Virus record (IMG/VR): IMGVR_UViG_3300027419_000023
Length of the DNA: 64,000 nucleotides
Source: a virus
Direction: 5' to 3' (one strand)
The notes below the pieces were generated by a model. It worked only from the letters and a program-made list of their open reading frames with translations, had not been told where the DNA came from and made no database searches. Below, piece by piece: positions 20,215 to 52,016 of this stretch. Numbering within the stretch: the stretch's first letter is position 1; every line of letters starts with the position of its first letter. A program made the position numbers and the translations under genes.

Positions 20215-20269
20215 TGATTAAACCTCCCTGGATTTAAGTACTTTATAGTACTATTTATACCTTTTGGAA

Positions 20270-20613: not shown

Positions 20614-20686
20614 AGCCACGAGTCGGATTTGAACCGACAACCTGGCGATTACTGGTCGCCTGCACTTCCAATTGTGCTTCCGTGGC
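20614..20686 (-). tRNA. tRNA-Thr(AGU)
   Basis: Cloverleaf GCCACGG/TCGTGGC, D GCAC/GTGC, anticodon GGCGA-CCAGTAA-TCGCC, T GTCGG-TTCAAAT-CCGAC; C2:G71 and U73 fit Thr identity; no encoded CCA. Confidence 0.88.
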
Positions 20687-29292: not shown

Positions 29293-30267
29293 TTATTTAG
29301 GCGGCCATTCCTTTATTAGATTCAGATTATATAAAGTTCTTCCATCAAAATATGCTTCTGGAATACAAGTCAAACGTTTAAATTGTGCACGTGTGGTTGT
29401 TATATTCCAATCACAAGGGCATTTATCAATAAAATCTTTTTCTGTCATAATAACATATCTTTGAAATATATTTCTAGATATTGCAAGAGGTCGCTCTGAA
29501 TCACCGAAGTTTAGTCTGTTTGGTCCTTGTGATACAGGATAATTAGTATATAAAACTTCAGTCCTATAAGTAGTTGCTTTACCGCTTGCAGATACTATAG
29601 GTATGTCATGATATTTTATAATCGGATTACCAAACGATTCATTTAAATCATCGCATTCGTATTCAGATAAAGCCCATTTATATTTAGCATTTTTAAGCAG
29701 TTCTATCATTCGTGGTCTATCAAAACTATCTGGCCTATATATACCAACATTTCCTGCTAAATAAGGAGGATCTAGGTATACGAACGATTCACTATCAAGA
29801 GGTAATGAATCTAATAATTCTATGGCATCTAATGAATACAATTCTGTATGGTGTAATAATTGTTTTGATAATAATATCCGATTTTTATAATCTGCAAGAT
29901 TATGGCCTCTATAACCAGTTATACCAGCGTTTTTTGTGCCTCCTGCCCATAAGACTAATGGTTCTAATATATTATATATATTTATATTAGTTTTTCTTAG
30001 TTCTAATACATCTTCTTTCGTTCTTAATTCTGGCAATATTTCTCCTTTATACGCTTTAATTGACTCAAAAAATGGAATCATTTGATTATCGTTCAAACAC
30101 CATCTAGTGTATCCATTTATCATTTTCATCAAGAAAAACATATTCCCTCTGCCAGCAAAAGGTTCGAAATAAGTAGAACCTTTAAGTGGGCACCACCTCA
30201 ATATAAATCTGCGGAGTCTTGCTTTACCTCCTCGGTATGTAAAATATGGAGCATCAACTAATTTCAT
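29293..30267 (-). CDS. DNA adenine methyltransferase (Dam/D12 class)
   Basis: Y.GGK, EPFAG.G, ND and YLDPPY motifs. Confidence 0.88.
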   Translation of the reverse strand: MKLVDAPYFTYRGGKARLRRFILRWCPLKGSTYFEPFAGRGNMFFLMKMINGYTRWCLNDNQMIPFFESIKAYKGEILPELRTKEDVLELRKTNINIYNILEPLVLWAGGTKNAGITGYRGHNLADYKNRILLSKQLLHHTELYSLDAIELLDSLPLDSESFVYLDPPYLAGNVGIYRPDSFDRPRMIELLKNAKYKWALSEYECDDLNESFGNPIIKYHDIPIVSASGKATTYRTEVLYTNYPVSQGPNRLNFGDSERPLAISRNIFQRYVIMTEKDFIDKCPCDWNITTTRAQFKRLTCIPEAYFDGRTLYNLNLIKEWPPK

Positions 30268-30283
30268 TTTATTTCTTCCTTGA

Positions 30284-30958
30284 TTATGTATATGGCAAAG
30301 GATCTTTGGTCTCATTTAATTCGAATGCCTCTATACGTTCAATGCAAGTCGGACAAGTTCCGCATGAAAGTTCTCCTGCATTATAGCAGCTGCGTGTTAT
30401 CTCATATGGCACACCTAAATTCAGACCAATCTTTACAATCTCGGCTTTCGTTAGATGAATAAATGGTGCCTCGATCCGAACAGGATGCCATAAGGTGGAA
30501 ATTCGAGTAGCTTCATTCAGAGCACTTAAGTAATTGGGCCTACAGTCTGGGTAGATAGCAGCATCCCCATTATGAGCCGCATACATCACGGTATTGATTC
30601 TACGAGCAGCTGCAATTCCTACTGCAATCGAAAGTAGAATTTGGTTACGATTAGGTACAACCGTTATCTTTGCAGACTCCTCTGTATACCCACAATTAGG
30701 TACAGCTATGTCTGGATTAGTAAGTGCACTAGAGTTAATATATCCAAATATAGGTTTAACATCAATGATATCATGCTGGATTTCTATTTCTTGCTCGCGA
30801 ATATACTTTATCATATTGCAAGCACAATCTATCTCTTTGGAATGTCTCTGCCCATAGTCAAATGTAATTGCATCCACATCGTCTCCGGAACTCAATAGAT
30901 CCCAAAGAAGTGTCGATGAGTCCATCCCACCCGAAAAAATTAATAGAACTTTACTCAT
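30284..30958 (-). CDS. queC: 7-cyano-7-deazaguanine (preQ0) synthase
   Basis: SGGMDS, YGQRH, VPNRN, YPDCR, SCY..CG.C..C. Confidence 0.95.
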   Translation of the reverse strand: MSKVLLIFSGGMDSSTLLWDLLSSGDDVDAITFDYGQRHSKEIDCACNMIKYIREQEIEIQHDIIDVKPIFGYINSSALTNPDIAVPNCGYTEESAKITVVPNRNQILLSIAVGIAAARRINTVMYAAHNGDAAIYPDCRPNYLSALNEATRISTLWHPVRIEAPFIHLTKAEIVKIGLNLGVPYEITRSCYNAGELSCGTCPTCIERIEAFELNETKDPLPYT

Positions 30959-31476
30959 TTTAGTAACTCCAATGTTTCCGATTTAAGACTTGCATTCTCT
31001 TTAAAAATCCCTCTAATAGCAGAACTTTCGGTAATTCCTGTCATCCTAGCTCCTCTTACTGTCATACAGCTATGGCATGCTTCTATTTTAACCATAACAC
31101 CTTTAACTCCTGGTATCCATTTAGTAAGATAATCAGCGATCTGGGCAGTCATATATTCCTGGAGTTGAGGCCGAGAAGCAAATTTTCTTACTGTTCTAGC
31201 GACTTTACTGAGCCCTATAATATGGGTACTCGGAAGGTATGCGATTGAAGCCTTTCCTGAAAAATTCATTAAATGATGTTGACAAAATGAAGTAAATTCT
31301 ATATTCTTGACTATTATCAAATCATCGCTAGTAGCTTCAAATACTCCTCTGCCTCGTTCAAGTTCGTCCCAGTCTCGCCAAAATTTAAATTCCTCCATCA
31401 TACGGTTAACACGATCTGGGGTATTTGCTTTGGCTTCTTCATCAAAAAGTTCATCTGGAAAATTAAGTCCTATCAT
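30955..31476 (-). CDS. folE: GTP cyclohydrolase I
   Basis: TP.RV, CQHH, GLSK..R, PQLQE, H.CM..RG. Confidence 0.93.
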   Translation of the reverse strand: MIGLNFPDELFDEEAKANTPDRVNRMMEEFKFWRDWDELERGRGVFEATSDDLIIVKNIEFTSFCQHHLMNFSGKASIAYLPSTHIIGLSKVARTVRKFASRPQLQEYMTAQIADYLTKWIPGVKGVMVKIEACHSCMTVRGARMTGITESSAIRGIFKENASLKSETLELLK

Positions 31477-31497
31477 TTATATTCAACTCAAAAATAT

Positions 31498-31905
31498 TTA
31501 AAGGTATTCTTCTGCATAATTCTCTTCTGATTCATGTACTCTAATTGTTATATGGTCGTTTTTATTAAGATGAATTATATTAACGAAATCATATAAAATA
31601 ATACTTGCTATATTTTCTGCGGTTGGATTACTATCGACAATTAGTATATCCATGCCAAGTTTTTGTAGAGGAACAAGTAAAGGATCCTCTTTATTCAATA
31701 TAGTTTTATGATCAAACTTTTCTGAAAAATATTGTTTTATAGACCTATAATCTATTAGCATTCCACAAGAATCAAGTTTACGATCGGACTGAATAAGAAC
31801 GTTCACTTTCCATGTATGTCCATGTAAATTATTACAACTACCAGAATAATTAAGCAAACGATGTGCAGCCGAAAATGTTATATTTTGAGATAATTTTAAT
31901 GTCAT
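31498..31905 (-). CDS. queD: 6-carboxytetrahydropterin synthase
   Basis: FSAAH.L, C.NLHGH.W, G..IDY, DH..LN, PTAEN, V.E; own AGGAG RBS and ATG at 31905. Confidence 0.92.
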   Translation of the reverse strand: MTLKLSQNITFSAAHRLLNYSGSCNNLHGHTWKVNVLIQSDRKLDSCGMLIDYRSIKQYFSEKFDHKTILNKEDPLLVPLQKLGMDILIVDSNPTAENIASIILYDFVNIIHLNKNDHITIRVHESEENYAEEYL

Positions 31906-32619
31906 TTTATCTTCTCCTATATAAATAGTTCCTATATGTTTTAATTCTTCTATTGAATTTATTTTTTCTAATTTTAAAATATCATCTATATATAATACTC
32001 TTAAATTTATTTTATTATACTTTAGAAAGAACCATCCAATTTTGTTTTTTGCTTCTGGCCTTATATATCCTTTAACCTCCCACCAAATATCTAATTCAGG
32101 TAAATAAAAATCCGGTGTATATGTCCTATCTGTCGGTATAGAAAAAGACTTTGGTTCGTATTCCCATTTAATCCCGATTTTAGTAAGTACCGTAGCGACT
32201 CGTGTCTCGTAACTAGACCTTAACCATATCTTTCTATCATTGTATGCAAAATAAGATCCATTTCCCCAATTACTTCCTATAGCAGATGATTTGCCATAAT
32301 TCGGATTATTTTTTCCACTCATTCGTATTGCCTGAGCAATTCGCCTTTCAGGTGTCCATGAAATCCTCATTTTTTCTTTAGCTTCAGGAGAAATTTTCTT
32401 CCCAGCATTTTTACCTTTCATTCCTTCTGACATTCTAACTAATGTTTCAGGTGATCTCTTCTTACCAAACAATGGATGTTTATTACCTCTCATTGCATTT
32501 CCTTTGCATTTATTTGAACAGAATTTTCCGCCGTTACGAAGTATTCTAGACTTAATAATATAAAAGTCTTTTCCGCAAAATTCGCATTTTCTTATGGTTC
32601 CACTTTTATTGTTTGGCAA
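31498..32619 (-). CDS. NUMOD3 / PD-(D/E)XK nuclease (homing-endonuclease-like) fused in frame to QueD
   Basis: CxxC...FCS..C, NUMOD3-like repeats, WLRSSYE..WEYE..PDFYLP..EVKG; no stop before QueD. Confidence 0.8.
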   Translation of the reverse strand: MPNNKSGTIRKCEFCGKDFYIIKSRILRNGGKFCSNKCKGNAMRGNKHPLFGKKRSPETLVRMSEGMKGKNAGKKISPEAKEKMRISWTPERRIAQAIRMSGKNNPNYGKSSAIGSNWGNGSYFAYNDRKIWLRSSYETRVATVLTKIGIKWEYEPKSFSIPTDRTYTPDFYLPELDIWWEVKGYIRPEAKNKIGWFFLKYNKINLRVLYIDDILKLEKINSIEELKHIGTIYIGEDKMTLKLSQNITFSAAHRLLNYSGSCNNLHGHTWKVNVLIQSDRKLDSCGMLIDYRSIKQYFSEKFDHKTILNKEDPLLVPLQKLGMDILIVDSNPTAENIASIILYDFVNIIHLNKNDHITIRVHESEENYAEEYL

Positions 32620-32689: not shown

Positions 32690-33826
32690 CTATTTATATC
32701 TAAATAAATTAGCTTGCGGGTCTTTCTTAGGCAACTCTGAAAACAATGATTTATATCGTTCATATACAATAGAAGACTTATGATTTTCAAAGTCCTTAAA
32801 TATATTATTTATATTATCAAATAGCTGTAATTCTCCGATTGATCGAGAGTATTCGCGTAAGGTATCCTCATCATCTACCATACAGTTCATCATTCGATTG
32901 ACTTCTATATATTGATACATGTCGTGATATGACAACAGGAGCGGAGTCATCGGATCAGTTTGATTATAAAGTTCTGATATAGTCATTTTACTACATACAG
33001 GACAATCACATGGAACATCATTCACTGCGTTAGCGAATTCTCTCCCAAGTCGTATACAATGCCGTACATCTAGTGGGAACCAGTAGTCCCGGAATCTAGA
33101 TCCCCATGACCACGAAGACGAATCGAAAGTAATCGATGCACCCGTATACTTAGCTAGCATAGCAAGTGATAGCATATTGCTTGGACCGCTTACCCCAAAG
33201 AAATGTGTATTCGTAAGTGGACTTTCTTCTCCCTTCTCTAGTAGATATAAGTATGCAAATACTTTCAAGTACACGTTAGTGCTTGGATGTACTCCTATAG
33301 CCCATCCATCGAAACTAAAGTCCTTTACTTCCTTATACCAAGTATCTATTTGGTCGAGGGTACGCCCATGTAAAATATTATAAAGAGCAAAATCATAATT
33401 AGTACGATTATCCTCGAAGAATTTAAAATTTTCCTTTGATTCTGATAGAGCGCCTTCAAAGTCTCGTACAGGAGGCACATCTAAGTTCATTCCAATGTCT
33501 ACATTATTTTCAAGCCACCTTAATACCTGCATAGGCGTAACATCTACCTGCCTGCCTTTCTTGCCGAATGACATTACTTGGAAGCCGCCGCTGTCCCCTA
33601 ATGTAATAACATCTTCAGGATAATTCATTACATTTTTGTGATCTAAGTCATCGGCTGTTATACGATAGTATGCGCTCATTAATAGAAATTTGTGATCAAA
33701 AAATGAGTTGCCAGACTCGAAAAACTTGAATCCAGATCCTTTATATTCAGTATTTTTTAACCATTGTACGATATTATTATCTCCAATCGCAGGAACGTAG
33801 TTAGATCCTTTAGGAATTATTTTCAT
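32690..33826 (-). CDS. dpdA: TGT-family transglycosylase, DpdA-like paralog 1
   Basis: DSGGFQ, LDVPP, HG, HFFG, FDSSS, CxCxxC-x22-H; adjacent to the que genes; start at ATG 33826. Confidence 0.82.
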   Translation of the reverse strand: MKIIPKGSNYVPAIGDNNIVQWLKNTEYKGSGFKFFESGNSFFDHKFLLMSAYYRITADDLDHKNVMNYPEDVITLGDSGGFQVMSFGKKGRQVDVTPMQVLRWLENNVDIGMNLDVPPVRDFEGALSESKENFKFFEDNRTNYDFALYNILHGRTLDQIDTWYKEVKDFSFDGWAIGVHPSTNVYLKVFAYLYLLEKGEESPLTNTHFFGVSGPSNMLSLAMLAKYTGASITFDSSSWSWGSRFRDYWFPLDVRHCIRLGREFANAVNDVPCDCPVCSKMTISELYNQTDPMTPLLLSYHDMYQYIEVNRMMNCMVDDEDTLREYSRSIGELQLFDNINNIFKDFENHKSSIVYERYKSLFSELPKKDPQANLFRYK

Positions 33827-34973
33827 TTTTAACCTCTGGATAAGAGAACATATTTCGTTCAACTGAATCCGTATTCCTTAGTGTCATTAGATGTTTGTAC
33901 TTATTATAAGTTTTATCGCATCCATTGTTATGATAGTATTCTATCATAGATGATACTATTTTAACTGTTTTTTCTTCTCCAACTGATTTAGCGTATTCCA
34001 TGAATGCATAATCATCGGTTACTAACGCATTTACCATACGGTTGACTTCTATGTATTGATAGAGATTATGCAGCATTAACAGAGTGCCCACGTCAGTTCC
34101 GGTTCGTTGATACAAATCTTCAATTGTTAAGTTTCTGCATACTGGACAATTGCATGGAATGGATTTCATATTAAGTTTTGATGTTCTACCAAAATCAGTA
34201 CTAAATCTAATATCCTTAGGAAAATAAAATCTTCTATATATTGATCCGGTCGCATAAGAACTAGAATCAAATGTAATTGACGAATCGAAATGATTGCTCA
34301 GCATTGCCATTACAAGCATGTTCTTGATACCGCTTATTCCAAACATATGGAAGTTTGTATTTAAGTTAAGAGCGTCCTTTTCATGCAAAAACATGTAACC
34401 CAATGTTTGTAAATAAACATTATCTGCCGGCCTAACTCCTAGCGCCCACCCGTTAAAACTTTTAAATTTTTCAACGGCGCTATACCAAGTTTTCATTTCA
34501 TCTAGCGTTTTTCCATGCAACACATTATATAGCTTCATATCATAATTTATTCTATTTTTTTCAAATAATTCAAAGTTCTCAATAGATTCCTTTAATGATG
34601 CATTGAAATTGCTCCACGGAGGTACATCTAAATTCATCCCGATATCTGCATTAGCTTCCATCCAACGTAATACCTGTAACGAGCTTACTTCAATTTTATT
34701 TCCTTTGCTTCTAAAGTTCGCTATCTGAAATCCGCCAGAATCCGCTATAAGAATATAGTTTTCTGGATACTTATATTCATTTCTAAAACTTATAGTACCC
34801 TCTAGTAGTTCCCAATAGGTCGTAGTTAAAGCATAATTATATTGAAAAAATGAATCCCCTTGAAAGAATCTCATATCATGGTTTTTATATTTATAATTAC
34901 TTTTCCATAATTTACTTCTAAATACGTCTGCTACCGCAGGTATAAATATAGCCTTCTTTTCTAATGGTTGCAT
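33810..34973 (-). CDS. dpdA: TGT-family transglycosylase, DpdA-like paralog 2
   Basis: DSGGFQ, LDVPP, HG, HMFG, FDSSS, CxCxxC-x22-H. Confidence 0.82.
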   Translation of the reverse strand: MQPLEKKAIFIPAVADVFRSKLWKSNYKYKNHDMRFFQGDSFFQYNYALTTTYWELLEGTISFRNEYKYPENYILIADSGGFQIANFRSKGNKIEVSSLQVLRWMEANADIGMNLDVPPWSNFNASLKESIENFELFEKNRINYDMKLYNVLHGKTLDEMKTWYSAVEKFKSFNGWALGVRPADNVYLQTLGYMFLHEKDALNLNTNFHMFGISGIKNMLVMAMLSNHFDSSITFDSSSYATGSIYRRFYFPKDIRFSTDFGRTSKLNMKSIPCNCPVCRNLTIEDLYQRTGTDVGTLLMLHNLYQYIEVNRMVNALVTDDYAFMEYAKSVGEEKTVKIVSSMIEYYHNNGCDKTYNKYKHLMTLRNTDSVERNMFSYPEVKNENNS

Positions 34974-35046
34974 TAAAACACCTATAAAAATATAATCTAA
35001 AAATGTAAAAGAGATTCGAGTATAAAAAGGTTTTGCTCTCCGAGAT

Positions 35047-35712
35047 TTACGGCCGGAAGAACAATGGATGTCCGTTCTCGACGAATCTAAGATGTTCCGA
35101 AGCTATATTCACGATCCTCGGAAAGTCTCCGCCTCGAGCTATTAGTCCCGATCGTATATCCATTACTTCTTTTTCTGGATTGCCAACCTCGGTAAGTTTT
35201 CTTGCGATAGCACTTATAGTAGCGAACTTATTCCTCTTTAGGCTACTTACATCAAGTTCAGGTTTTGCTTCTGAACCCTCTGGAAATTCATGGACTTCAG
35301 TGTACTCGACACTCGGAACAGCTGGCTTAATAATAGCCAGTTTCTCCTTTATAACTAATTTACTAGATTCTTCTTCATCTGAGCGTTCGCTAGTTAATAC
35401 ACTATCATTAGAACTAGCTGGAGGCGTCTTAACAACAGAAGGCTCGGGAAGTTCCGAGTCTCCTGTTGAAGCAGCTTCTTCTGCATTATGGACTTCTGGT
35501 GTCACTATTTCTTTATGGGTGAAGGCTTGCCTCATCCTATTCCGGTATGTGGACGACACTGCATGCTTAGAGATTTCCGTTGCATTTTCAGGGATAATAT
35601 CCCCTATATGGAAAGCTCTATGGGTACTCTTTCCGTTCTCCTTTACAATTTTGTAGTATCTAACCTCTTTTCCACAGATCTTGCATATGTCTTTCTTTTC
35701 ATCGACTGACAT
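35047..35712 (-). CDS. Zn-finger hypothetical protein, paralog of 35772..36167 with a long acidic linker
   Basis: CKICG...THRAFH...STYR and shared C-terminal helix. Confidence 0.65.
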   Translation of the reverse strand: MSVDEKKDICKICGKEVRYYKIVKENGKSTHRAFHIGDIIPENATEISKHAVSSTYRNRMRQAFTHKEIVTPEVHNAEEAASTGDSELPEPSVVKTPPASSNDSVLTSERSDEEESSKLVIKEKLAIIKPAVPSVEYTEVHEFPEGSEAKPELDVSSLKRNKFATISAIARKLTEVGNPEKEVMDIRSGLIARGGDFPRIVNIASEHLRFVENGHPLFFRP

Positions 35713-35771
35713 TTTTATCACTCCATTACGTATTATTATAATTATTATAAATTTAATATTATGTCCGGAAC

Positions 35772-36167
35772 TCAATTCCGGACGATCTTTAGATATGGAG
35801 CAGCCAGCTCGATATCGGTCTGGAAATTGCTTCCCTTGGCCAGCATCTTTTTCCTCATCTCGGTTGCATCTTCTGCAGACATCCCGTTTTCCTTCATGAT
35901 ATTTATAGCTTCTGTTACCATCACGATGCGATTCATTCCAGTGGCGTCCAGCACCGGTACGGAGACGTGTCCATTATGGGGGATAGCATCCCGCAATCTC
36001 TTTCGGTATGTCGGGCTAATATCATGGATGTCGTTTAGCACAATCATTCCAGCCGGTACCTCTCCTGCATGGAAAGCTCTATGCGTAATCTTCCCATCGG
36101 CCTTAATGACCTTTACGTATTCGACGTTCCTTCCGCAAACCGGGCATATGTTTTTCTTAGTGTACAT
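35772..36167 (-). CDS. Zn-finger hypothetical protein
   Basis: CPVCG...THRAFH...PTYR; promoter at about 36228-36243. Confidence 0.65.
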   Translation of the reverse strand: MYTKKNICPVCGRNVEYVKVIKADGKITHRAFHAGEVPAGMIVLNDIHDISPTYRKRLRDAIPHNGHVSVPVLDATGMNRIVMVTEAINIMKENGMSAEDATEMRKKMLAKGSNFQTDIELAAPYLKIVRN

Positions 36168-36361: not shown

Positions 36362-36823
36362 CTAGAAATCAAAAAGAGATTTACCACACTTCTTTTTAGG
36401 TTGCTTTACCTTTTCTATCTTTACTTCGCGAAGTCCTAGTAATTTTCTTTCCTTATTATCGCATCCTAATGATGTAGCTATTTGATTCCAATCAATATAA
36501 TCAAATACTTTCTTATTATGATTAAATTCTTGATCAGACCATTTGTAGTACTTCATTACGAGAGTTTTTTTCAATTCAAATGATTTATCTCTCGCTTCTT
36601 TTGATGACTTAGGATACTTTACATATACATTAGTATCTTTCATTCCTGATGCCAGCATATGCAGCGTAATCTGAGGATCCAAGAAAAATATATATTTATT
36701 TACTTCTTGACACCATGATAAATCTCGTATACTCGCGCTAGCCCATCGCAACAAAGGGTAGAGCATTTTGGTATCTACTTGAGATAATCTCTTTGCCTTG
36801 AGGTTATTAAAGCTATTATACAT
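36362..36823 (-). CDS. Clamp loader A-subunit-like (T4 gp62-like)
   Basis: Follows the RFC-like gene; LRW.S..., EVNKY, YY.WS pattern; C-terminal KSLFDF. Confidence 0.6.
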   Translation of the reverse strand: MYNSFNNLKAKRLSQVDTKMLYPLLRWASASIRDLSWCQEVNKYIFFLDPQITLHMLASGMKDTNVYVKYPKSSKEARDKSFELKKTLVMKYYKWSDQEFNHNKKVFDYIDWNQIATSLGCDNKERKLLGLREVKIEKVKQPKKKCGKSLFDF

Positions 36824-36833
36824 GAATATAATC

Positions 36834-37700
36834 CTATTTCATTAGTTTGATCATTAAATTCTCTATAAGGATTTCTTTCCATGCTACTTGGCCCAACCAT
36901 TTATATGATTCGGCAATAGATGTTACCGCGCGCTGTTTATATTCAGAAGATTCTGAACTATCATATATTGTTTGATCGAGATCTTTCAATAATTGTTCAT
37001 AGTCTGGATGACTGTCGAGAATAATCTGCCTAATGGAATTAAAGTCTTTCTTTTTTATTAATTCAAATATTTTTGTTGATAATTTTATTTCACTTAATAT
37101 TCGTGATGATGTTATACCATCCTTATTTTGTTCTATTTTGTTTATAGCAGACCGTATATCATTCCCTGTTTGATCGACTATTTTTTTTAGTGCATCCAAT
37201 TCATAAGGTATTTTTTCATTTTCGCATATAAATTTCAGACGATCGACTATTTGTTCTTTCGGTATATTATCAAATTTAATTAATATACATCTAGATTTTA
37301 ATGGATCTATAATACGATTTATGTAGTTACATGTTAATATAAATCTAGTATTTCGCGAATATGTTTCCATGGTGTTGCGAAGAGCGGTTTGGGCGTCTGG
37401 AGTTAAATGATCGGCTTCGTCTAGAAATACTATTTTTATATTACTATCCATGCTTTTAGTCGATGCAAAGTCTCTTACTTTATCTCGCACGACATCAATA
37501 CCGCGTTCTGAGCTTGCATTCAATACTATATAATCGCATTTTAATGTATTTATAATAATTCTTGCCAGCGTAGTTTTTCCTATACCAGGGCTTCCATAGA
37601 GTAATAAGTGAGGTAAAGAGTCATCGATGTTAAAGGTATTATTAAATCCTATTAAATCTTCTATCTTTTGAGGCCGATATTTTTCAACAAGTAATGGCAT
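36834..37700 (-). CDS. Clamp loader AAA+ subunit (RFC small subunit / T4 gp44-like)
   Basis: [36 protein letters not shown]. Confidence 0.93.
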
Positions 37701-37731: not shown

Positions 37732-38454
37732 TTAGCTAGTCTGTACTTCATCGACTGGAGATACAGGAGATACCATCCATTTGATGACACTATCTGTATC
37801 TTTACTGACTATCAGCATCGGATAGTCGTTATTAAAAGAAATATTAACTCGTCCTGTTATAACGGATATAAATTCTAAGAAAGTGCATCCATATTTCCCG
37901 ATAACGTCCTTATAGTCGGCTGATGTTTTTATAGTTATCTTATTAAAATTATCCTCGCCTGTTCGGACATATAGTATCCTATCTTTTACTTCTGCAATGA
38001 CTCCTATTTTGCTGGTACCTAATATTTGAGTCGACTTCTTAACATTTGTCCAAATAGCGCTATCTACTTCGAATCCTCCGTCATGTGCTAAGGTAGGCAA
38101 TTCTTCGAGGTTACATTCCAAGAATTGTTCATCTGGAATAATCAAATCTGCATCTATTCCACTAGATGATATATGGAAAATATTTTCTCCTTGCCGGGAC
38201 AATTCTATAGTACCATTCATAGTGCCTAATATGCTAATTAAGGTAGACATATTTTTAATTGGTACATTCATTTCATGATATTCGGTGAAGTTACTAATTT
38301 TCAGGAGACCCGTAGTCGCACCGGTCATCGTTATGTCTTTTAGTGTAACTACAAGACCTTCAGGACCGAACTTTAAAATTCCATCTGTTATACTACCATT
38401 TATACTTACTTTCTTTATAAAGTCTAATAGTGTCTTTGCGTTGATTTTCGTCAC
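37732..38454 (-). CDS. DNA sliding clamp (PCNA / gp45-like)
   Basis: 240 aa, two-domain beta-alpha pattern, terminal 'WMVSP'; directly upstream of the clamp loader. Confidence 0.7.
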   Translation of the reverse strand: MTKINAKTLLDFIKKVSINGSITDGILKFGPEGLVVTLKDITMTGATTGLLKISNFTEYHEMNVPIKNMSTLISILGTMNGTIELSRQGENIFHISSSGIDADLIIPDEQFLECNLEELPTLAHDGGFEVDSAIWTNVKKSTQILGTSKIGVIAEVKDRILYVRTGEDNFNKITIKTSADYKDVIGKYGCTFLEFISVITGRVNISFNNDYPMLIVSKDTDSVIKWMVSPVSPVDEVQTS

Positions 38455-38546
38455 TTATAATACCTCGCTAAAAAATAGAATTCGTATAATTCTATGCTAG
38501 TTAATCTAGTTAAAATAATAGTATATAAAGATTTTGGTTGTTCTTT

Positions 38547-39203
38547 CTATTTTCCTAAGTTTCGGATATGTAATCTATCTGAAAAATTTGTTCCCAATCG
38601 AAGAGATGTTTTCCATGTATTTGGACCGCTAATACTAAGTTCATGAGGTGTTGCTCCGCCTGGCATTACAAAGATCTTGCCGACATCAAGATTAAATTCC
38701 TGAATTAAAGATCTTAGTGTTCCTTCGCTATACATCCAGGGAGCTGCGCCTACTACAAACTTAAATACGCAATTATCAATAGATTTCCAGTTATTAAAAA
38801 ATTCTCGTCTCTGTTGTAAGGATTTAAAGCAGTCTTGTTTAGGACTAACCATTATAAATCGGAAATACTTTGCAAATTCGGAATCTAAAGGAATAATGCC
38901 ATTAGTTTCTAAGTCTACTTTTTTATCAGTTAAGTTGTCTAATAATTCTTTTAATTCCTCTTTTTGAAGTAATGGTTCTCCTCCGGTGATAACGAGTTGG
39001 GTGTTTGCAGGATGTCTTCCTAAATGTTCCCGAATCCGTTGTAGTAAGTCCGGTATAGTTATTTCTTCGATTTTTATCGCAGGGGTATCGCATCCTTTAC
39101 ATGAAAGTTGACATCCGGCTAGTCGAACGAATAAAACCGGCCTTCCTTGAATTGGCCCTTCGCCCTGAAGGCTATAAAACAAATCATATATCTTCATATT
39201 CAA
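38547..39203 (-). CDS. queE: 7-carboxy-7-deazaguanine synthase (radical SAM)
   Basis: SLQGEG, CxxxCxxCDT, TGGEP, ETNG, SPK, R.H. Confidence 0.93.
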   Translation of the reverse strand: MNMKIYDLFYSLQGEGPIQGRPVLFVRLAGCQLSCKGCDTPAIKIEEITIPDLLQRIREHLGRHPANTQLVITGGEPLLQKEELKELLDNLTDKKVDLETNGIIPLDSEFAKYFRFIMVSPKQDCFKSLQQRREFFNNWKSIDNCVFKFVVGAAPWMYSEGTLRSLIQEFNLDVGKIFVMPGGATPHELSISGPNTWKTSLRLGTNFSDRLHIRNLGK

Positions 39204-39431
39204 TTCAATAGACGCTTATTGTATTTAAAGATTTTGGTTCATTTTCGATTACTTTTTGTAACTGCTACCAAAAAGACTATATACGATACGGTGGTAGTAA
39301 GTTTGTATGATAATCACTGCTTGGGAAATACTGATATTCATATTAGGTATAGTAACAGGAACCAGCCTATCATTGATTGTATTCATGTTAGGAGTTGAAT
39401 CCGGATTAAAATCATATAGGACCTGATTAAT

Positions 39432-40880: not shown

Positions 40881-41825
40881 TCAGTCCTGAATCACATTTT
40901 TACTTATTAAATATTCGTTTAACGGTATTCCGATACTAGTTATGGGTTCATTACTATATAAAAATTTTATTATATCATCATATTGTAAAACAATTAATTT
41001 TTTATCAGGATATTTATTATTAAACATAATCATCTTTTGTTTAGAATCATCTGTTAAATATCCTTTTACTTCAACGTATAAATCATACTCCGGTAAATAA
41101 AAATCTGGATGCCAGATAATATCATTCTGCAGTTCTATTCGTTTTTCATATTCCCATGCAACTGTTTGTTTTTCTAATTCAGTTGCAAACAATATTTCAT
41201 ATGACGATCTTAACCATATAATAACATTATTTGATTTAGTAAAATATGCTCCGTTACCATGTCCGGATCCAGGATATGCAGGTTTCCCATAACGAGGATG
41301 ATCTTTTCCTGATATTCTGGGTATCTTTGATAGATGCTGTTTTGTTTCTTCTGTATGATGCTTACCATAAAACGGGTTTTTATCACCAACTAATTTACCC
41401 GTCAATGCTTTTGATATTCTTTCTCCTCGTAATCTTAGAACATCTTCTGAAATATTATATTTTTTACCTAAATGAGACTCAGAGCAATTACGAGCTTTAA
41501 TGCCAAATTCTTTCATCCAATGGCATATAGTATTTTTTTCAATATTAAATTCGCGTTCTATTTGTTCATAAGACTTTCTATGAAAAATATATTGTTCTTC
41601 TAACCATTCTTTGTTCCTAAATTTTATTATGTCAATATTATGACAAAGATCAATAGCTTCTAATAACGTTCTTTTTGGTATACTAAATTTAGCTAACCAC
41701 TTAGATATTGTGACATTAGTACATCCAACTTCTTTAGCTATTTGATTACAAGATCGTTTGAGTATAATATATTGATTAAATAACCATTCTTTATTATTAT
41801 ATTTATTAGAATATTTCTTTACCAT
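40881..41825 (-). CDS. NUMOD3 / HTH / PD-(D/E)XK homing-endonuclease-like protein
   Basis: KEWL..QY repeats, NPFYGKHHTEETK, WLRSSYE, PDFYLPE, EVKG. Confidence 0.8.
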   Translation of the reverse strand: MVKKYSNKYNNKEWLFNQYIILKRSCNQIAKEVGCTNVTISKWLAKFSIPKRTLLEAIDLCHNIDIIKFRNKEWLEEQYIFHRKSYEQIEREFNIEKNTICHWMKEFGIKARNCSESHLGKKYNISEDVLRLRGERISKALTGKLVGDKNPFYGKHHTEETKQHLSKIPRISGKDHPRYGKPAYPGSGHGNGAYFTKSNNVIIWLRSSYEILFATELEKQTVAWEYEKRIELQNDIIWHPDFYLPEYDLYVEVKGYLTDDSKQKMIMFNNKYPDKKLIVLQYDDIIKFLYSNEPITSIGIPLNEYLISKNVIQD

Positions 41826-42115: not shown

Positions 42116-43186
42116 CTATAACTCATCAATTTCCAAATATTCTTTCAATATTAATCCAGCATATTCTAAAGTTATTTTATTTTTTATCAATAAATCAATA
42201 TCTTTCTTTTGTAACACTCTTAATTTAATAAAAGGATATTTATTATAGAACTTAATCATTTTACGTTTTGCATCATCCGTTAACCATCCCTTTATTTCGA
42301 TATAAAGATCATACTCGGGCAAATAAAAATCAGGATGCCATATATCATTGTCTAATTCAAACAATTTTTCATATTCCCATACACATTTAATCTTATCAAG
42401 ATAATCAGCAAATACAGTTTCATAAGATGAACGTAACCATACAGTAGATCCATCTAATTTAGTATGATAAGAACCTTTACCAAATCCCGTACCGGGTCTA
42501 GCAGGTTTACCGTACATATAATGATCTTTACCAGATATTCTTGGCCAGAGAGCCATTTTCCTACGAGTTTCTTCAGATGGATTAGAAAGTTTCTTGGATA
42601 ATATTTGTTTGGTTTCTTCAGTATGATGCTTTCCGAAAAACGGATTCTTTTCACCTGTTCTACCATACATCGGATTATTAGAACCAGTATACTTTCCTTT
42701 TCTGGAAATCGACATATGCTCTCGTGCTTCTGCATCCAACGTCCAATGCTTTCCAAAATTTGGATGGTTTTCTCCTACAAATTTTTTACGGGAAAGAGAT
42801 ATCTTCCTACGAGTTTCTTCAGATGGATTAGAATTTGCTTCCGATATCTTACGTTTCGTTTCTTCGGATCTTAGTTTGCCATATATGGGATTATTTTCAC
42901 CAGAAACATCTGCGTGATTTTCAGACATCTTTTTCCTAGTATATGAAGTTTTGCACTGTTCTGATGATGGTCGTATGCTAAAACCAAATAATTTTATATA
43001 TTTACCTACTATATAATTGGTAGTATTTAATTCTTTTGCAATAGACGAAATTGATCGAAATATCATATTATATTGTTCGTTTATCCAATCATAATCAGTA
43101 AGAAGTAATTTCGCTTCTTCGGTTAATATAGAATCTTTCTTTTTTAAGCGTACCAAGAATTCCAGACTCCTCTTATATTCATACAC
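42116..43186 (-). CDS. NUMOD3 / PD-(D/E)XK homing-endonuclease-like protein (likely TTG start at 43156)
   Basis: Multiple SEETRRKIS / GENNP repeats; WLRSSYE, PDFYLPE, EIKG. Confidence 0.8.
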   Translation of the reverse strand: MYEYKRSLEFLVRLKKKDSILTEEAKLLLTDYDWINEQYNMIFRSISSIAKELNTTNYIVGKYIKLFGFSIRPSSEQCKTSYTRKKMSENHADVSGENNPIYGKLRSEETKRKISEANSNPSEETRRKISLSRKKFVGENHPNFGKHWTLDAEAREHMSISRKGKYTGSNNPMYGRTGEKNPFFGKHHTEETKQILSKKLSNPSEETRRKMALWPRISGKDHYMYGKPARPGTGFGKGSYHTKLDGSTVWLRSSYETVFADYLDKIKCVWEYEKLFELDNDIWHPDFYLPEYDLYIEIKGWLTDDAKRKMIKFYNKYPFIKLRVLQKKDIDLLIKNKITLEYAGLILKEYLEIDEL

Positions 43187-43407
43187 TCATATAAAATGAA
43201 TAATATTGAATAAGGTATATTTTTTGCTTTTAAAAAGCCTATTAACATATAGCCATTTGAACCGATCCATAGAAAAAATCCAAGACCTCTCCAAGAAGCA
43301 CTGATATCAGAAGAAAATGTTGCACCTAATACAGCAACTAACATAGTTAAATATTCTAATGGATGTATTTTGATGTCATTATAGATATCAGTAATGCTAT
43401 TATTCAA
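43144..43407 (-). CDS. PnuC-like small membrane protein
   Basis: Three TM helices, GF.LW..SN and G.W..W pattern. Confidence 0.5.
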   Translation of the reverse strand: MNNSITDIYNDIKIHPLEYLTMLVAVLGATFSSDISASWRGLGFFLWIGSNGYMLIGFLKAKNIPYSILFILYECMNIRGVWNSWYA

Positions 43408-43559
43408 TTACTCACTTCCGTCTCGAAGTCAAACAAATCCATCTGCTCGTGTTCATCTTCCTGGACTTTTAGAAAACATATCAGTCCGTAACCGCGTTCC
43501 TGACTGTCTGGATCCTTGAGGTTACGTCCGCATCGCTTACATTTATAAAAAGTAGGCAT
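43404..43559 (-). CDS. DUF6011-like Zn-finger protein (51 aa)
   Basis: CKRCGRNLKDPDSQERGYGLIC; QMDLFDF near C-terminus; below ORF-track cutoff. Confidence 0.7.
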   Translation of the reverse strand: MPTFYKCKRCGRNLKDPDSQERGYGLICFLKVQEDEHEQMDLFDFETEVSN

Positions 43560-49219: not shown

Positions 49220-49503
49220 AACCGGTAACTCCGTGGTAGAATTTTATTGTCATGATTTAAAGTTTTCTCTTCAAACCATCTACCAATATTTCCGCAAGTA
49301 TTTTTATCATCTCGATAATATCTCAATGCATATGGCGATTTTATAAAATTAAACTTACCTGTCACTAGGTTAATAGGTGCTAGATTATTACTATGCCAAC
49401 ATTGATGTTGTCTATTAATTTCTCCATGATTAGGTGCACTTGGATCGAATTTGTAATACTTGCAATCACAACAATATCTCTTTATCATACCAAATCTCCT
49501 CAC
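49216..49503 (-). CDS. Cys-rich hypothetical protein
   Basis: C.DCKYY...C...CG..G.WFE. Confidence 0.5.
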   Translation of the reverse strand: MRRFGMIKRYCCDCKYYKFDPSAPNHGEINRQHQCWHSNNLAPINLVTGKFNFIKSPYALRYYRDDKNTCGNIGRWFEEKTLNHDNKILPRSYRL

Positions 49504-52016
49504 TGAAATGCAAATAGTCCTGTCTTCTTTGGTAATACTACTTTTTGTTTTTCAGTATTTAATACTTTTGGTACGCTTTCGAATCCGAAGAGACTGCTCT
49601 CCGTAAGTTTCCTTTTGCCAGTCGCTATATTTATGCCTATAGCCGAGAACACTCTTTCAAGGGGTGGCAACAATTGATGCTCTATATAGAAACTAGTATC
49701 AATACGACCGTCTGTCTCCTTAATATGCTCTAAGGTATCAACCATGAGACTAATGCCATCCTTAGATGCACCAGGTAAAGCCATATATCGAATACGATCA
49801 CCTAGTCCGGGTAGATTCTCACCACGTTCTCTCATTTTCTTATAACAAGTTACATGAGGTTGGATATTCTTGTAGCCTTCTATATTGCCGATCTTACGGC
49901 TAAGAACAAGTTTTTCTGCTAGTTCTGGATTAACTCTAATATCCTGTAGGGTTTTAACGGATAATATAACCTCATTGGTATATTTCCAGGCTTCGTCTAC
50001 TTTACCTTCGCATAGGATTAAATGAAGTACCTTATCCATGCTTTCGCCGACTAATGAAACCCAATCCCTCCTGCGTGTTTCGATGCCCCTGTACTTAATC
50101 TTGTCTTTCCAACCATCTTTTCCTTGTTCGAATATCCACATGGCATAGCGTTTTTTCTCAAAGATAATAGCACGTTTCGCAAAACACTCGAAATCGATTT
50201 CCATGGGCGGAGGCAATTTCGTTAGCATACTGTCATGGATGATTTTAGCGCACTTTTTACTCTCATCTGGGTCTGTTACTTTATTTAACCGGATAAACAC
50301 AGAATCTGTATCCCCGCCAACTACATGACAATCTACTAGTTCTTCCGCCGTTTTTCTAGTCAACTGAATCGCCATACGACCTACAGAAGTCACTGAATTA
50401 GCAAGTCTTGGATCGTAAAGCCTACCCCGAATAGCCCCGGTGTAGCCGTAAAACGAATTTAACAAAATTTTCACACTGTATTGTTGATTATCGTAGAATT
50501 CTCTCTCATTTTTGTCACTACACGACTTCATTAGTTTTTTTAATTCTACTCTTTTGTTGTATAGGTTAGTCAGAATCCTTGGCATTATACCTTCGTACAC
50601 GGAATGATCGGTATATCGTACTTCATTAGGAGCAGTTATTGTTTTGACATCTGTTTCTTCCTCATTTATGATAGACGACCAGCATATATTATAAGCTCGA
50701 ATAGCTGATGGATAAAGACTTTTATAGTCCATGATAATTAGGTTTTCGTGTAGCCCGCGCTCCGAATCAAGCACTTTACCTCCTGTTACTTTCTCGACTT
50801 TTTTGTCTTTGTCGTTGAGAGGCCATAGTCTTCCTTCCTTATAGAATTCTCGAAGTAACATTGACTCTATACGGCGAGACTGACCACCATTGATTGTCTC
50901 ATGAAGTAATAAGCCACAGTCTTTACTAATATTGATGTAACGGTCTATTAGTTTAAGTTCCTTTATGATGTCTTGGAGTAGGTCAGCATCTCGTCCCGCA
51001 TAATCAAGAAAGGACCGTAACTTACTTTCGGATCCGTTTAACCATATTTCACGCATTTCACTGGCTTTAATGTCTAGTTTTGGTCTGTTAAGTAATGTTT
51101 TGGAAACATTTTCCAAGCTATATGAAGTCAACGAATAATTTAGTTTAATTGCATTTAATAAGTCTATGTAAGCCCGACCTACCATATTAACTTCTTTACT
51201 TGCACCAAACGCTCTTATCTGGAATGGAGTTCCATCTCGGCCTAAATCATTAGGAATACCTAATATTTCTAGTCTCTTCTCAATATACGGAAAATCGAAT
51301 GTATCACCATTAAAAGCCATTACGATATCTGGATCATATTCTTTGAATATGTCCATAAAGGTTGATAACATCCAGAATTCATCAGGGAAATATTTGATGT
51401 TTTCGGTGTCTTGTCCTGGCTTAGCAACTAACACAAGGGTATTTCCAGTGTTGAAACTTATCGAAATTATGGTTATAGGATCTCTTTCCGGTATAGGCAC
51501 TCCAAATTCGGGAGGCAGTACTTCAATATCCAAGCCAAGAAATCGTAACGGAGCATTTTCCAGGATATTATGTAAGGGCTTCACGTTATTGCTATCAGCT
51601 TCGAGCCACTTCATGCCCCATAAGTCATTATCAGTCAGGAACCGAGCTGTAGCATATAGCACGTCAGCTTCGAAAATATCAACTATAGCTGGATGCCTTC
51701 TTAAGGAGTCTCGGATCTTCGGGACATCACTAGGTCTATTGACATAGACTTGCAGGACTTCTGTTCGTTCCTTTTGAAAACCAATTGGTAGAAATTTATA
51801 GTCCTCGAATACATCAGTAACTTCAGGAAGTTCCGACAGCATTTGCTTGACTTCGCTAGAGTTTCTTGGTAAAATATAAAAGTATGGCCTGAATCCAAGG
51901 ATGTCATGCTGAATAGAATTACCAGACTTATCGCGACCATATAAAGTAATCACCGGACCACGGCCACTATTCCTATATTTAGTGGATATTAATTGAAATT
52001 GCATGAGATTCTCCAA
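49500..52016 (-). CDS. polB: Family B DNA polymerase
   Basis: Exo DIE, FNG..FD, Y...D; Pol DYKSLYPS, K...NS.YG, GDTDS, KKRY. Confidence 0.96.
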   Translation of the reverse strand: MENLMQFQLISTKYRNSGRGPVITLYGRDKSGNSIQHDILGFRPYFYILPRNSSEVKQMLSELPEVTDVFEDYKFLPIGFQKERTEVLQVYVNRPSDVPKIRDSLRRHPAIVDIFEADVLYATARFLTDNDLWGMKWLEADSNNVKPLHNILENAPLRFLGLDIEVLPPEFGVPIPERDPITIISISFNTGNTLVLVAKPGQDTENIKYFPDEFWMLSTFMDIFKEYDPDIVMAFNGDTFDFPYIEKRLEILGIPNDLGRDGTPFQIRAFGASKEVNMVGRAYIDLLNAIKLNYSLTSYSLENVSKTLLNRPKLDIKASEMREIWLNGSESKLRSFLDYAGRDADLLQDIIKELKLIDRYINISKDCGLLLHETINGGQSRRIESMLLREFYKEGRLWPLNDKDKKVEKVTGGKVLDSERGLHENLIIMDYKSLYPSAIRAYNICWSSIINEEETDVKTITAPNEVRYTDHSVYEGIMPRILTNLYNKRVELKKLMKSCSDKNEREFYDNQQYSVKILLNSFYGYTGAIRGRLYDPRLANSVTSVGRMAIQLTRKTAEELVDCHVVGGDTDSVFIRLNKVTDPDESKKCAKIIHDSMLTKLPPPMEIDFECFAKRAIIFEKKRYAMWIFEQGKDGWKDKIKYRGIETRRRDWVSLVGESMDKVLHLILCEGKVDEAWKYTNEVILSVKTLQDIRVNPELAEKLVLSRKIGNIEGYKNIQPHVTCYKKMRERGENLPGLGDRIRYMALPGASKDGISLMVDTLEHIKETDGRIDTSFYIEHQLLPPLERVFSAIGINIATGKRKLTESSLFGFESVPKVLNTEKQKVVLPKKTGLFAFQ

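What the first reader, a model, noticed from the sequence alone, without database searches (positions are those of the whole stretch)
32690..34973. Both DpdA paralogs carry a sliding-clamp-binding-like tail: candidate replisome-tethered deazaguanine DNA modification
Seen: DpdA-1 ends PQANLFRYK* and DpdA-2 has ERNMFSY near its end. The same xxx[LM]Fx[FY] pattern ends the gp62-like clamp loader subunit (GKSLFDF*, 36362), occurs twice in the PolB tail (ESSLFGF and KTGLFAFQ*, 49500-49600), and lies near the end of the DUF6011 protein (QMDLFDF, about 43425). Established: PCNA/gp45 partners dock through short C-terminal PIP-type hydrophobic motifs, and DpdA exchanges G for 7-deazaguanines in DNA after synthesis. 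Inference: the virus loads its transglycosylases onto its own clamp (37732..38454), so modification follows the fork and may be confined to viral DNA. I know of no description of clamp-coupled DpdA. The tail also argues for a DNA rather than a tRNA substrate.
Basis: partly seen in the sequence, partly recalled or inferred. Interest (0 to 1): 0.88.

Follow-up and report, generated by a model that had tools for sequence, protein, structure and literature searches.

The report
Clamp-docking tails on viral DNA transglycosylases
An uncultured tailed virus encodes two guanine-swapping (DpdA-like) enzymes whose floppy ends carry the same short peptide as its DNA polymerase and clamp loader, so they probably dock on the virus's sliding clamp and modify DNA at the replication fork; binding has not been measured.

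Summary
Both tandem TGT/DpdA-like proteins, the PolB (twice), the small clamp-loader subunit and a 51-aa DUF6011 protein carry [LM]Fx[FY] at or near the C-terminus. That is 5 proteins against about 1 expected in this window.

The 240-aa ORF at 37732-38454 has a PCNA fold (AF2 plus Foldseek). In the AF2 model of DpdA-1 the motif lies in a 16-residue low-confidence coil after a well-folded TGT domain.

Across about 270 homologues, a C-terminal hydrophobic-aromatic peptide is enriched 2.5- to 6-fold over background ORFs. In 9 divergent lineages the DpdA tail resembles that genome's own PolB or loader tail (for example QTTLW in both; GQVKLF, GQVSLF and QISLF). The statistics are moderate (p about 0.01). 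Two lineages with PolA or Pol III alpha replisomes have other DpdA ends.

Fork-following and restriction to viral DNA remain inference.

The proteins are closest to the archaeosine TGT catalytic domain and matched none of the described DpdA subfamilies tested here (bDpdA, DpdA3, DpdA4), so "DpdA" is a functional inference.

No paper in the searched library links DpdA to a clamp. This scan has noted the same idea in at least 8 other genomes.

The parts
32690..33826 (-). DpdA-like transglycosylase 1 (378 aa from the ATG at 33826; the ORF is open from a TTG at 33862)
   Evidence: Pfam TGT E 4e-10. AF2 mean pLDDT 92. Foldseek finds the TGT fold. The catalytic Asp residues and the CxCxxC...H zinc site are invariant in the family alignment.
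32693..32740 (-). Disordered C-terminal tail of DpdA-1 (residues 375-390 of the long ORF) ending QANLFRYK
   Evidence: DSSP assigns coil, and block pLDDT falls from 72 to 55. The motif is conserved in homologues, for example QANLFGF, ETNLFGW and QKNLFSY.
33810..34973 (-). DpdA-like transglycosylase 2 (387 aa), 43% identical to DpdA-1; its 3' end overlaps the DpdA-1 start
   Evidence: Pfam TGT E 3.5e-9. Identity from alignment A3.
33840..33860 (-). ERNMFSY motif of DpdA-2, ten to sixteen residues from its end
   Evidence: Orthologues keep N[IM]xS[FY] followed by a short extension (P0036 EKNIFSYP, P0039 QKNINSYF, P0025 ININSFP).
36362..36823 (-). Small clamp-loader subunit (gp62-like, 153 aa) ending KSLFDF
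   Evidence: Lies directly downstream of the RFC-like ATPase. No Pfam or PHROG hit. The nearest ESM Atlas clusters are 'clamp loader small subunit' / PF16790 Phage_clamp_A, score 0.91. The tail is conserved as [ST]L[FL][DES]F* in 8 related loci.
36834..37700 (-). RFC-small / gp44-like clamp-loader ATPase (288 aa)
   Evidence: Pfam AAA E 5e-20 and DNA_pol3_delta2. PHROG 168 'clamp loader of DNA polymerase' E 5.5e-73.
37732..38454 (-). PCNA-fold sliding clamp (240 aa)
   Evidence: The profile hits PCNA chains in the PDB at E 4e-4. AF2 pLDDT 85, pTM 0.81. The top 50 Foldseek hits are all PCNA, with TM 0.69-0.82.
49500..52016 (-). Family B DNA polymerase (838 aa) with two tail motifs: ESSLFGF (49581-49601) and TGLFAFQ* (49503-49523)
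   Evidence: Pfam DNA_pol_B E 1.6e-87. Both motifs are kept in PolB relatives of 65-87% identity (SLFGF...GLFSFS*, DLFGF...GLFSFT*, SLFGY...GLFAFK*).
43404..43559 (-). 51-aa DUF6011 protein with QMDLFDF (43425-43445) near its end; a candidate small clamp ligand
   Evidence: Pfam DUF6011 E 8e-8. Homologues end NLFEFGR*, TDLFAFETERD* and TDLFQYEVKDDT*.
35021..35035 (-). Promoter-like element CAAAACCTTTTTATA upstream of DpdA-2
   Evidence: The pattern CAAAAYCTTTWTATA (up to 2 mismatches) occurs 19 times against 2.2 expected. Copies lie upstream of DpdA-2, the clamp (38522-38536), QueE (39222-39236) and other genes.
30284..32619 (-). preQ0 pathway genes: QueC (30284-30958), FolE (30955-31476) and QueD (the C-terminal half of ORF 31498-32619). 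QueE lies at 38547-39203.
   Evidence: PHROG QueC E 2e-69, GTP cyclohydrolase E 4e-43 and QueE E 5e-39. Pfam PTPS E 8e-25.

Best explanation
The two tandem TGT-superfamily enzymes are DNA 7-deazaguanine transglycosylases (DpdA-like). Each carries, on a flexible C-terminal tail, a PIP-type clamp-interaction peptide: [QE]xN[LM]Fx[FY].

Proposed mechanism:
1. The virus's RFC-like loader places its PCNA-fold clamp on primer-template junctions of viral DNA.
2. PolB docks on the clamp through its own LFx[FY] tails.
3. The DpdA paralogues dock through theirs on the same hydrophobic pocket, on free protomers of the trimer.
4. Guanine is therefore exchanged for preQ0-type bases, made by the co-encoded FolE, QueD, QueE and QueC, on freshly made duplex close to the fork.

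Shown here: the motifs, their position on a floppy tail, their conservation, their resemblance to same-genome polymerase and loader tails, and the clamp fold.

Inferred: binding, DNA as the substrate, timing at the fork, and selectivity for viral DNA.
For: 1. Five proteins in the window carry the motif terminally, against about 1 expected. Two of them belong to the classic clamp-client classes, the polymerase and the loader small subunit.

2. The clamp has a PCNA fold. Solved structures in that hit list show a PCNA with the RFC-L PIP-box peptide (1ISQ) and a PolB-PCNA complex (3A2F).

3. DpdA-1 is confidently folded to about residue 374. The last 16 residues are low-confidence coil, as expected for a linear motif.

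4. Family-wide enrichment. The strict motif [LIM][FW]x[FWY] occurs in the last 12 residues of 27% of 143 homologues, against 4.5% of 515 background ORFs. Looser descriptors give 52-63% against 18-25%. Counted per cluster, p runs from 4e-2 to 7e-16 depending on descriptor and clustering level. Of 127 further 50%-identity representatives, 82 end in a hydrophobic-aromatic peptide.

5. Same-genome resemblance in divergent lineages:
- L031: PolB NQTTLW*, DpdA VQTTLW*.
- L028: PolB GQVKLF*, loader GQVSLF*, DpdA KQISLFGRWS*.
- L029: PolB QQSLFDF*, DpdA TSSLFED*.
- L030: PolB SLDKWMK*, loader TLDSWMK*, DpdA SLKEFFI*.
- L014/L018: PolB N[NK]FFKF*, DpdA HEFFV.../QHTFFV*.
- L022: PolB TMDKWLQ*, loader SLSRWEN*, DpdA ELDMWNDI*.
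A permutation test over 9 lineages gives p 0.011. A within-genome rank test gives Fisher p 0.008.

6. Synteny is conserved: clamp, RFC, small subunit, preQ0 genes, DpdA, PolB.

7. Two lineages with PolA or Pol III alpha replisomes have unrelated DpdA ends.

8. Precedent: in T4, gp43, gp55 and gp33 share interchangeable C-terminal clamp-binding motifs on variable linkers (PMC2988020).

9. The same promoter-like element precedes DpdA-2, the clamp and QueE.
Against: - There is no binding evidence of any kind.
- The co-variation statistics are only moderate. In 5 of 9 lineages some other lineage's client tail scores as well as or better than the genome's own. In the L023 lineage the DpdA ranks 27th of 35 ORFs by tail similarity.
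- A third to a half of family clusters lack a clear motif. Some close relatives in viruses with a PolB and clamp have aromatic-free ends, for example L006 SRNLSAIL* and L012 ASNLNGIK*.
- The loose descriptors have 18-25% background.
- The proteins do not match curated or tested DpdA models: PADLOC gives none, NCBIfam gives only weak arcTGT hits, and hhalign against phiST DpdA3 gives probability 0.2. DNA as substrate is therefore itself inferred.
Confidence: 0.65

Rival explanations
1. The tail is a real docking peptide, but its receptor is not the viral clamp. It could be the host's own clamp, PolB itself, or another replisome hub that polymerase, loader and DpdA all contact.
For: Sequence comparison shows only that the tails share a receptor, not which one. 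Some lineage tails (QVKLF*, QVSLF*, QISLF in L028) also fit the bacterial beta-clamp consensus Qxx[LM]F (my own knowledge). In T4, a second binding site at the clamp subunit interface is discussed (PMC2988020).
Against: A clamp-like gene, an RFC-like gene, or both lie within 10 kb of the DpdA gene in every motif-bearing lineage examined. The loader small subunit and the polymerase are the canonical ligands of the clamp's hydrophobic pocket (1ISQ and 3A2F; PMC2988020).
Confidence: 0.12
2. The resemblance is not functional for docking. The hydrophobic-aromatic end is a chance or compositional feature, or it serves DpdA itself, for example in oligomerisation or by capping the active site.
For: The window-only statistics are modest (shuffle p 0.03). 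Loose motif descriptors hit 18-25% of background ORFs. Many homologues lack the motif. The tail-similarity rank is poor in some lineages.
Against: Family-level enrichment survives clustering at 40-70% identity. The motif stays at the extreme end while the preceding linker varies in sequence and length. AF2 does not pack it against the fold. Identical or near-identical endings occur in the same genome's PolB (L031, L028, L029).
Confidence: 0.15
3. The enzymes are virus-encoded tRNA-guanine transglycosylases (archaeosine-TGT-like) that act on tRNA. The tail is then unrelated to DNA modification.
For: The best solved and curated matches are archaeosine TGT: 1IQ8 at E 1e-20 and TIGR00432 as the weak best hit. 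There is no match to bacterial DpdA models, to DpdA3 or to the DpdA4 domain PF20314.
Against: Only the catalytic TGT domain is present (378-387 aa, against 582 aa for arcTGT 1IQ8), and Pfam detects no tRNA-binding C-terminal domains. The genes lie inside the replication module next to PolB in many lineages. The tail is shared with replisome proteins. According to PMC10516641, all viruses known to carry 7-deazaguanines in DNA encode a TGT-family DpdA.
Confidence: 0.08

Closest known systems
[quoted passage not shown]
   Same: Short hydrophobic C-terminal peptides on variable, unstructured linkers. They are shared by the polymerase and by functionally unrelated proteins of one virus. They recruit non-replicative enzymes to a virus-encoded clamp loaded at replication forks.
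   Different: The client here is a DNA base-exchange enzyme rather than a transcription factor. The clamp resembles archaeal and eukaryotic PCNA in fold searches. The motif is LFx[FY] with basic flanks, not the hydrophobic and acidic T4 type. Binding is untested.
PIP boxes of archaeal PCNA partners (RFC large subunit, PolB, FEN-1, RNase HII; PDB 1ISQ, 3A2F, 1RXM, 3P83)
   Same: The position at the extreme C-terminus and the spacing of hydrophobic and aromatic residues. The RFC-L peptide QATLFDF (my own recollection) is nearly the same as the loader tail KSLFDF here. The motif occurs on both polymerase and loader.
   Different: No transglycosylase or other base-exchange enzyme appeared as a PCNA partner in the literature searches.
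Phage and bacterial DpdA, the 7-deazaguanine DNA transglycosylases: bDpdA and DpdA1-4 (PMC6884629, PMC10516641, PMC10164549)
   Same: TGT fold with intact catalytic Asp residues and zinc site, encoded with FolE, QueD, QueE and QueC in a virus. The expected chemistry is exchange of G in DNA for preQ0-type bases.
   Different: No detectable membership of bDpdA (PADLOC none), DpdA3 (hhalign probability 0.2) or DpdA4 (no PF20314 hit). DpdA1 and DpdA2 were not compared directly. The closest match is the arcTGT catalytic domain. Neither of the two phage DpdA papers read here (PMC6884629, PMC10516641) mentions a clamp (0 occurrences). PMC10516641 describes insertion as 'post-replication' without a recruitment mechanism.
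DNMT1-PCNA coupling of maintenance methylation to replication in mammals (PMC4575159)
   Same: A DNA-modifying enzyme with a PCNA-binding region that ties modification to replication.
   Different: Eukaryotic, with an N-terminal motif, and a methyl transfer rather than a base exchange. This is an analogy only.

Membership tests
PIP-box / clamp-interaction motif clients | A short hydrophobic-aromatic peptide in a disordered region, usually at a terminus | tested here: met
   QANLFRYK* and ERNMFSY lie in the tails. The DpdA-1 tail is coil with pLDDT 72 falling to 55.
PIP-box / clamp-interaction motif clients | The same motif on established clamp partners of the same organism (polymerase, clamp loader) | tested here: met
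   PolB has SSLFGF and GLFAFQ*; the loader small subunit has KSLFDF*. The same holds in 9 lineages.
PIP-box / clamp-interaction motif clients | Conservation of the motif while the linker varies | tested here: met
   Enrichment is 2.5- to 6-fold over background, but the motif is not universal (absent or degenerate in about 35-50% of clusters).
PIP-box / clamp-interaction motif clients | Canonical consensus Qxx[ILM]xx[FY][FY] | tested here: inconclusive
   DpdA-1 has Q, L and Y at positions 1, 4 and 7, with F at position 5 and K at position 8. It fits the archaeal RFC-L type (LFDF) better than the eukaryotic consensus. DpdA-2 lacks the Q.
PIP-box / clamp-interaction motif clients | Physical binding to the clamp's hydrophobic pocket | not testable with these tools
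PCNA-type sliding clamp (ORF 37732-38454) | Two-domain PCNA fold of about 240-260 aa | tested here: met
   AF2 pLDDT 85. The top Foldseek hits are PCNA, TM 0.69-0.82, E about 1e-13. The profile hits PCNA at E 4e-4.
DpdA (DNA 7-deazaguanine transglycosylase) | TGT fold with catalytic Asp residues and a Cys3His zinc site | tested here: met
   Pfam TGT. Foldseek finds TGT. D90, D128, D247, C285, C287, C290 and H313 are invariant in 54 sequences.
DpdA (DNA 7-deazaguanine transglycosylase) | Encoded in a virus together with preQ0 synthesis genes, and lacking tRNA-binding domains | tested here: met
   FolE, QueC, QueD and QueE lie in the window. Only the catalytic domain is detected.
DpdA (DNA 7-deazaguanine transglycosylase) | Sequence membership of a described subfamily (bDpdA, DpdA1-4) | tested here: not met
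   PADLOC gives none. NCBIfam gives only arcTGT at 49-63 bits against a cutoff of 350. hhalign against phiST DpdA3 gives probability 0.2. There is no PF20314 (DpdA4) hit. DpdA1 and DpdA2 were not compared directly.
DpdA (DNA 7-deazaguanine transglycosylase) | Base exchange on DNA | not testable with these tools
   Needs biochemistry, or LC-MS of DNA.

The most novel reading that the evidence does not exclude
Clamp docking is a general strategy by which viruses with PCNA- or gp45-type clamps aim their DNA-disguising enzymes (DpdA-like transglycosylases and, in some lineages, methyltransferases) at nascent viral DNA. A trimeric clamp would act as a tool belt that carries PolB together with one or two DpdA paralogues. 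Base exchange would then be co-replicative, processive and selective for viral genomes, not a free post-replicative reaction.
Probability: 0.35. Interest if true: 0.8.

Novelty: new variant of a known kind. Interest (0 to 1): 0.62.

Why it matters
[quoted passage not shown] It reports very different insertion levels between subfamilies (under 0.1% to 100% of G) and gives no account of how the enzyme finds its DNA.

A clamp-docking tail would supply a recruitment mechanism. It could explain how a virus modifies its own DNA quickly and selectively. It would also add base exchange to the activities organised by sliding clamps.

The idea can be tested with peptides and recombinant proteins. The tail also gives a practical bioinformatic marker for separating DNA-directed from tRNA-directed TGT homologues in viral metagenomes.

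Tried and rejected
- No whole genome is held for this window.
- The megablast search of the phage collection found nothing.
- The first two search for related loci attempts failed: the alignment was too diverse, and the single-protein query found no confirmed relative.
- Cultured-phage TGT proteins (Vibrio GR7B, Pseudomonas PpuM) are only about 26% identical. They are longer and end in lysine-rich tails, so they are not useful models.
- I considered filing the proteins under DpdA3 or DpdA4 and rejected both.
- Tail similarity scored with BLOSUM over 12-mers is a noisy metric. Flanking residues dominate it, so I report its moderate p-values as they are.
- P0081 looked like a motif-less relative, but it has EKSLLHY about 25 residues before its end. 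No DNA was available for that contig.
- P0054 lies in a degraded integrated element and was not informative.
Full report
**What is there.** The window is part of an uncultured tailed virus. It encodes a large terminase (PHROG 38, E 1e-112). No whole genome is held and there is no near match among cultured phages.

From about 29 kb to 52 kb the minus strand carries a replication and DNA-modification module:
- a Dam-like methyltransferase;
- QueC, FolE and QueD;
- two tandem TGT-like genes (33810-34973, then 32690-33826/33862);
- two zinc-ribbon paralogues;
- a small clamp-loader subunit (36362-36823);
- an RFC-like ATPase (36834-37700);
- a 240-aa ORF (37732-38454);
- QueE;
- homing-endonuclease-like genes;
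- a DUF6011 mini-protein;
- PolB (49500-52016).

**Observation.** Among 127 ORFs, five proteins carry [LMI]Fx[FY] within their last 16 residues, against about one expected (Poisson p 0.004; shuffle p 0.03). All five lie in the replication and DNA-modification module. Two of them, PolB and the loader small subunit, belong to classes whose C-terminal peptides are known clamp ligands. PDB entries 1ISQ and 3A2F appear, and the T4 case is reviewed in PMC2988020.

**The clamp.** The 240-aa ORF has no Pfam or PHROG hit. A profile of 24 homologues hits PCNA chains in the PDB at E 4e-4. The AF2 model has pLDDT 85 and pTM 0.81. Its top Foldseek matches are all PCNAs, with TM 0.69-0.82. The small subunit's nearest ESM Atlas clusters are 'clamp loader small subunit' / Phage_clamp_A at score 0.91, which is a lead rather than proof.

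**The enzymes.** Both TGT-like proteins hit Pfam TGT. DpdA-1 folds confidently (pLDDT 92) into a TGT fold. The catalytic aspartates and the Cys3His zinc site are invariant across 54 homologues.

Their closest solved and curated relative is the catalytic domain of archaeosine TGT (1IQ8, E 1e-20; TIGR00432, far below its cutoff). They do not match:
- bacterial DpdA models in PADLOC;
- phiST DpdA3 (hhalign probability 0.2);
- the DpdA4 domain PF20314.

'DpdA' is therefore a functional inference. It rests on the fold, the absence of tRNA-binding domains, the co-encoded preQ0 pathway and the position inside the replication module. The family is large: 2,792 clusters at 50% identity with E up to 1e-3, and 713 with E up to 1e-30.

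**Is the tail a linear motif?** In the AF2 model the last helix ends at about residue 374. The final 16 residues are coil, and confidence falls to 55.

Among 120 homologues the preceding linker varies while the end keeps forms such as QANLFGF, ETNLFGW, KQVSIFNF*, KQSSIWGF* and QKNLFSY*. In DpdA-2-like proteins the form is N[LIM]xS[FYW] followed by a short extension.

Against 515 background ORFs from the same loci, a set that still includes the true clients, the figures are:
- strict motif: 27% of homologues against 4.5% of background;
- looser descriptors: 52-63% against 18-25%;
- counted per cluster at 40-70% identity: p from 4e-2 to 7e-16.

Of 127 additional 50%-identity representatives, 82 end in a hydrophobic-aromatic peptide. 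Many look like textbook PIP-type ends, for example NLLDYY*, KMDDWL*, DIGEWI* and TIFDF*. The motif is not universal. Some close relatives in viruses with a PolB and clamp end without an aromatic residue (SRNLSAIL*, ASNLNGIK*).

**Same-genome comparison.** I fetched 22 IMG/VR loci and 10 metagenome or genome contigs. The gene order clamp, RFC, small subunit, preQ0 genes, DpdA, PolB recurs across lineages whose DpdAs are only 25-40% identical.

The terminal peptide differs between lineages, and the DpdA tends to follow its own genome:
- L031: PolB NQTTLW*, DpdA VQTTLW*.
- L028: PolB GQVKLF*, loader GQVSLF*, DpdA KQISLFGRWS*.
- L029: PolB QQSLFDF*, DpdA TSSLFED*. Two methyltransferases, a DUF6884 protein and a 168-aa protein also end SLF[DEN][DF]*.
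- L030: PolB SLDKWMK*, loader TLDSWMK*, DpdA SLKEFFI*.
- L014/L018: PolB N[NK]FFKF*, DpdA HEFFV... / QHTFFV*.
- L022: PolB TMDKWLQ*, loader SLSRWEN*, DpdA ELDMWNDI*.
- L023-L025: PolB NIF[DQS][YF], loader [GS]L[SA]xWG, DpdA [VI]W[NGS]F*.

PolB relatives of the window virus keep both tail motifs.

Formal tests are supportive but moderate. Permuting the pairing among 9 lineages gives p 0.011. Ranking the DpdA tail among all ORF tails of its own locus gives Fisher p 0.008. The metric is crude, and some lineages do not stand out: L023 and the window itself.

**Contrast lineages.** A DpdA homologue in a PolA phage ends in a Cys-rich extension. One in a Pol III alpha phage ends KKKKK-LESVEDLI*. In that phage the polymerase ends NQGSLFS* and the SSB ends DDDIPF*. 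Only two such lineages were examined, so the evidence is thin. It is still consistent with the PIP-like tail accompanying a PolB and PCNA-type replisome.

**Expression context.** The element CAAAAYCTTTWTATA occurs 19 times against 2.2 expected. Copies sit upstream of DpdA-2, the clamp, QueE and other genes on the coding strand. It resembles an archaeal BRE plus TATA box (my own knowledge), and PolB's best cultured matches are haloarchaeal tailed viruses at 25% identity. The host is therefore possibly archaeal but remains unknown.

**Interpretation.** The best-supported reading (about 0.65) is that the DpdA tails are clamp-interaction peptides that tether the enzymes to the viral clamp. This mirrors T4 gp55 and gp33, which borrow the polymerase's clamp-binding end (PMC2988020). 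Fork-coupled and virus-selective modification follows plausibly but was not tested.

The rival readings are a different shared receptor, a non-docking role or chance, and a tRNA substrate. I place them at about 0.12, 0.15 and 0.08.

**Novelty.** No paper in the searched library links DpdA to a clamp or to PCNA. The two main phage DpdA papers do not mention clamps. One of them calls insertion post-replicative and offers no recruitment mechanism.

The idea is not unique to this window. This scan's notes record the same reading in at least 8 other genomes. Those notes are unchecked AI notes and do not count as evidence. I independently saw two of their patterns: the NxFFKF lineage, and methyltransferases that carry the polymerase tail.

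I rate this a new variant of a known kind. It combines a known motif class with a known enzyme superfamily in a way the searched literature does not describe.

Noticed in passing
L029:11308-12129, 12132-12629, 15736-16242, 18464-19387: In one distant lineage, two DNA methyltransferases, a DUF6884 protein and a 168-aa protein all end SLF[DEN][DF]*. This is the same ending as that genome's PolB C-terminal piece (QQSLFDF*) and its DpdA (TSSLFED*). Several DNA-modifying enzymes may therefore be clamp clients there.
   Followed up: partly
window 29293-30315 (-): The Dam-like (D12 class) methyltransferase ends LYNLNLIKEWPPK*. Relatives down to 42% identity keep [LF][YF]NL[ND]x[IL]xxW near the end. 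This could be a further PIP-like end or just the end of the fold.
   Followed up: partly
window 43404-43559 (-): A 51-aa DUF6011 protein has a conserved DLFx[FY] tail in relatives (NLFEFGR*, TDLFAFETERD*, TDLFQYEVKDDT*). It is a candidate small clamp-binding protein of unknown role.
   Followed up: partly
window 31498-32619 (-): One 373-aa open frame joins a NUMOD3 / endonuclease-I-like homing-endonuclease part (residues 1 to about 220) to QueD (PTPS, residues 243-370). An internal Met stands at the QueD start. It may be a fusion or two genes read in one frame.
   Followed up: no
window 40881-41825 and 42116-43186 (-): Two more NUMOD3 homing-endonuclease-like genes have similar C-terminal halves. 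The RFC gene in L025 carries an intein, and the PolB region of L005's contig is a 1,243-aa open frame split into two matching parts. The replication module appears heavily invaded by selfish elements.
   Followed up: no
window 35047-35775 and 35772-36167 (-): Two paralogous zinc-ribbon proteins lie between the DpdA genes and the clamp loader. They have no family hits. The longer one ends ENGHPLFFRP*, and relatives keep [ED]xGxP[LVF] near the end.
   Followed up: partly
window, 19 sites including 17799, 25281, 35021, 36227, 38522, 39222, 48344 (-): The promoter-like element CAAAAYCTTTWTATA occurs 19 times against 2.2 expected, mostly upstream of genes on the coding strand. It looks like an archaeal BRE/TATA pair, which hints at an archaeal host.
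   Followed up: partly
L037:1784-3022 and 6623-7786: In a phage with Pol III alpha and an SSB ending DDDIPF*, the DpdA homologue ends KKKKK-LESVEDLI*. This resembles that phage's RecA end (KLSSLEDEI*) and not the polymerase's beta-clamp motif (QGSLFS*). It may be a different docking system.
   Followed up: no
L001:7681-11161: Some relatives carry three tandem DpdA paralogues, each with its own tail variant (NMMSFISSGEIV*, NLFRSW*, NLFGWQNL*). L006 has a fragmented extra copy.
   Followed up: no
window 20269-20344 (-): ARAGORN reports a tRNA-like gene with an undetermined two-base anticodon, next to tRNA-Thr(AGT) at 20614-20686.
   Followed up: no
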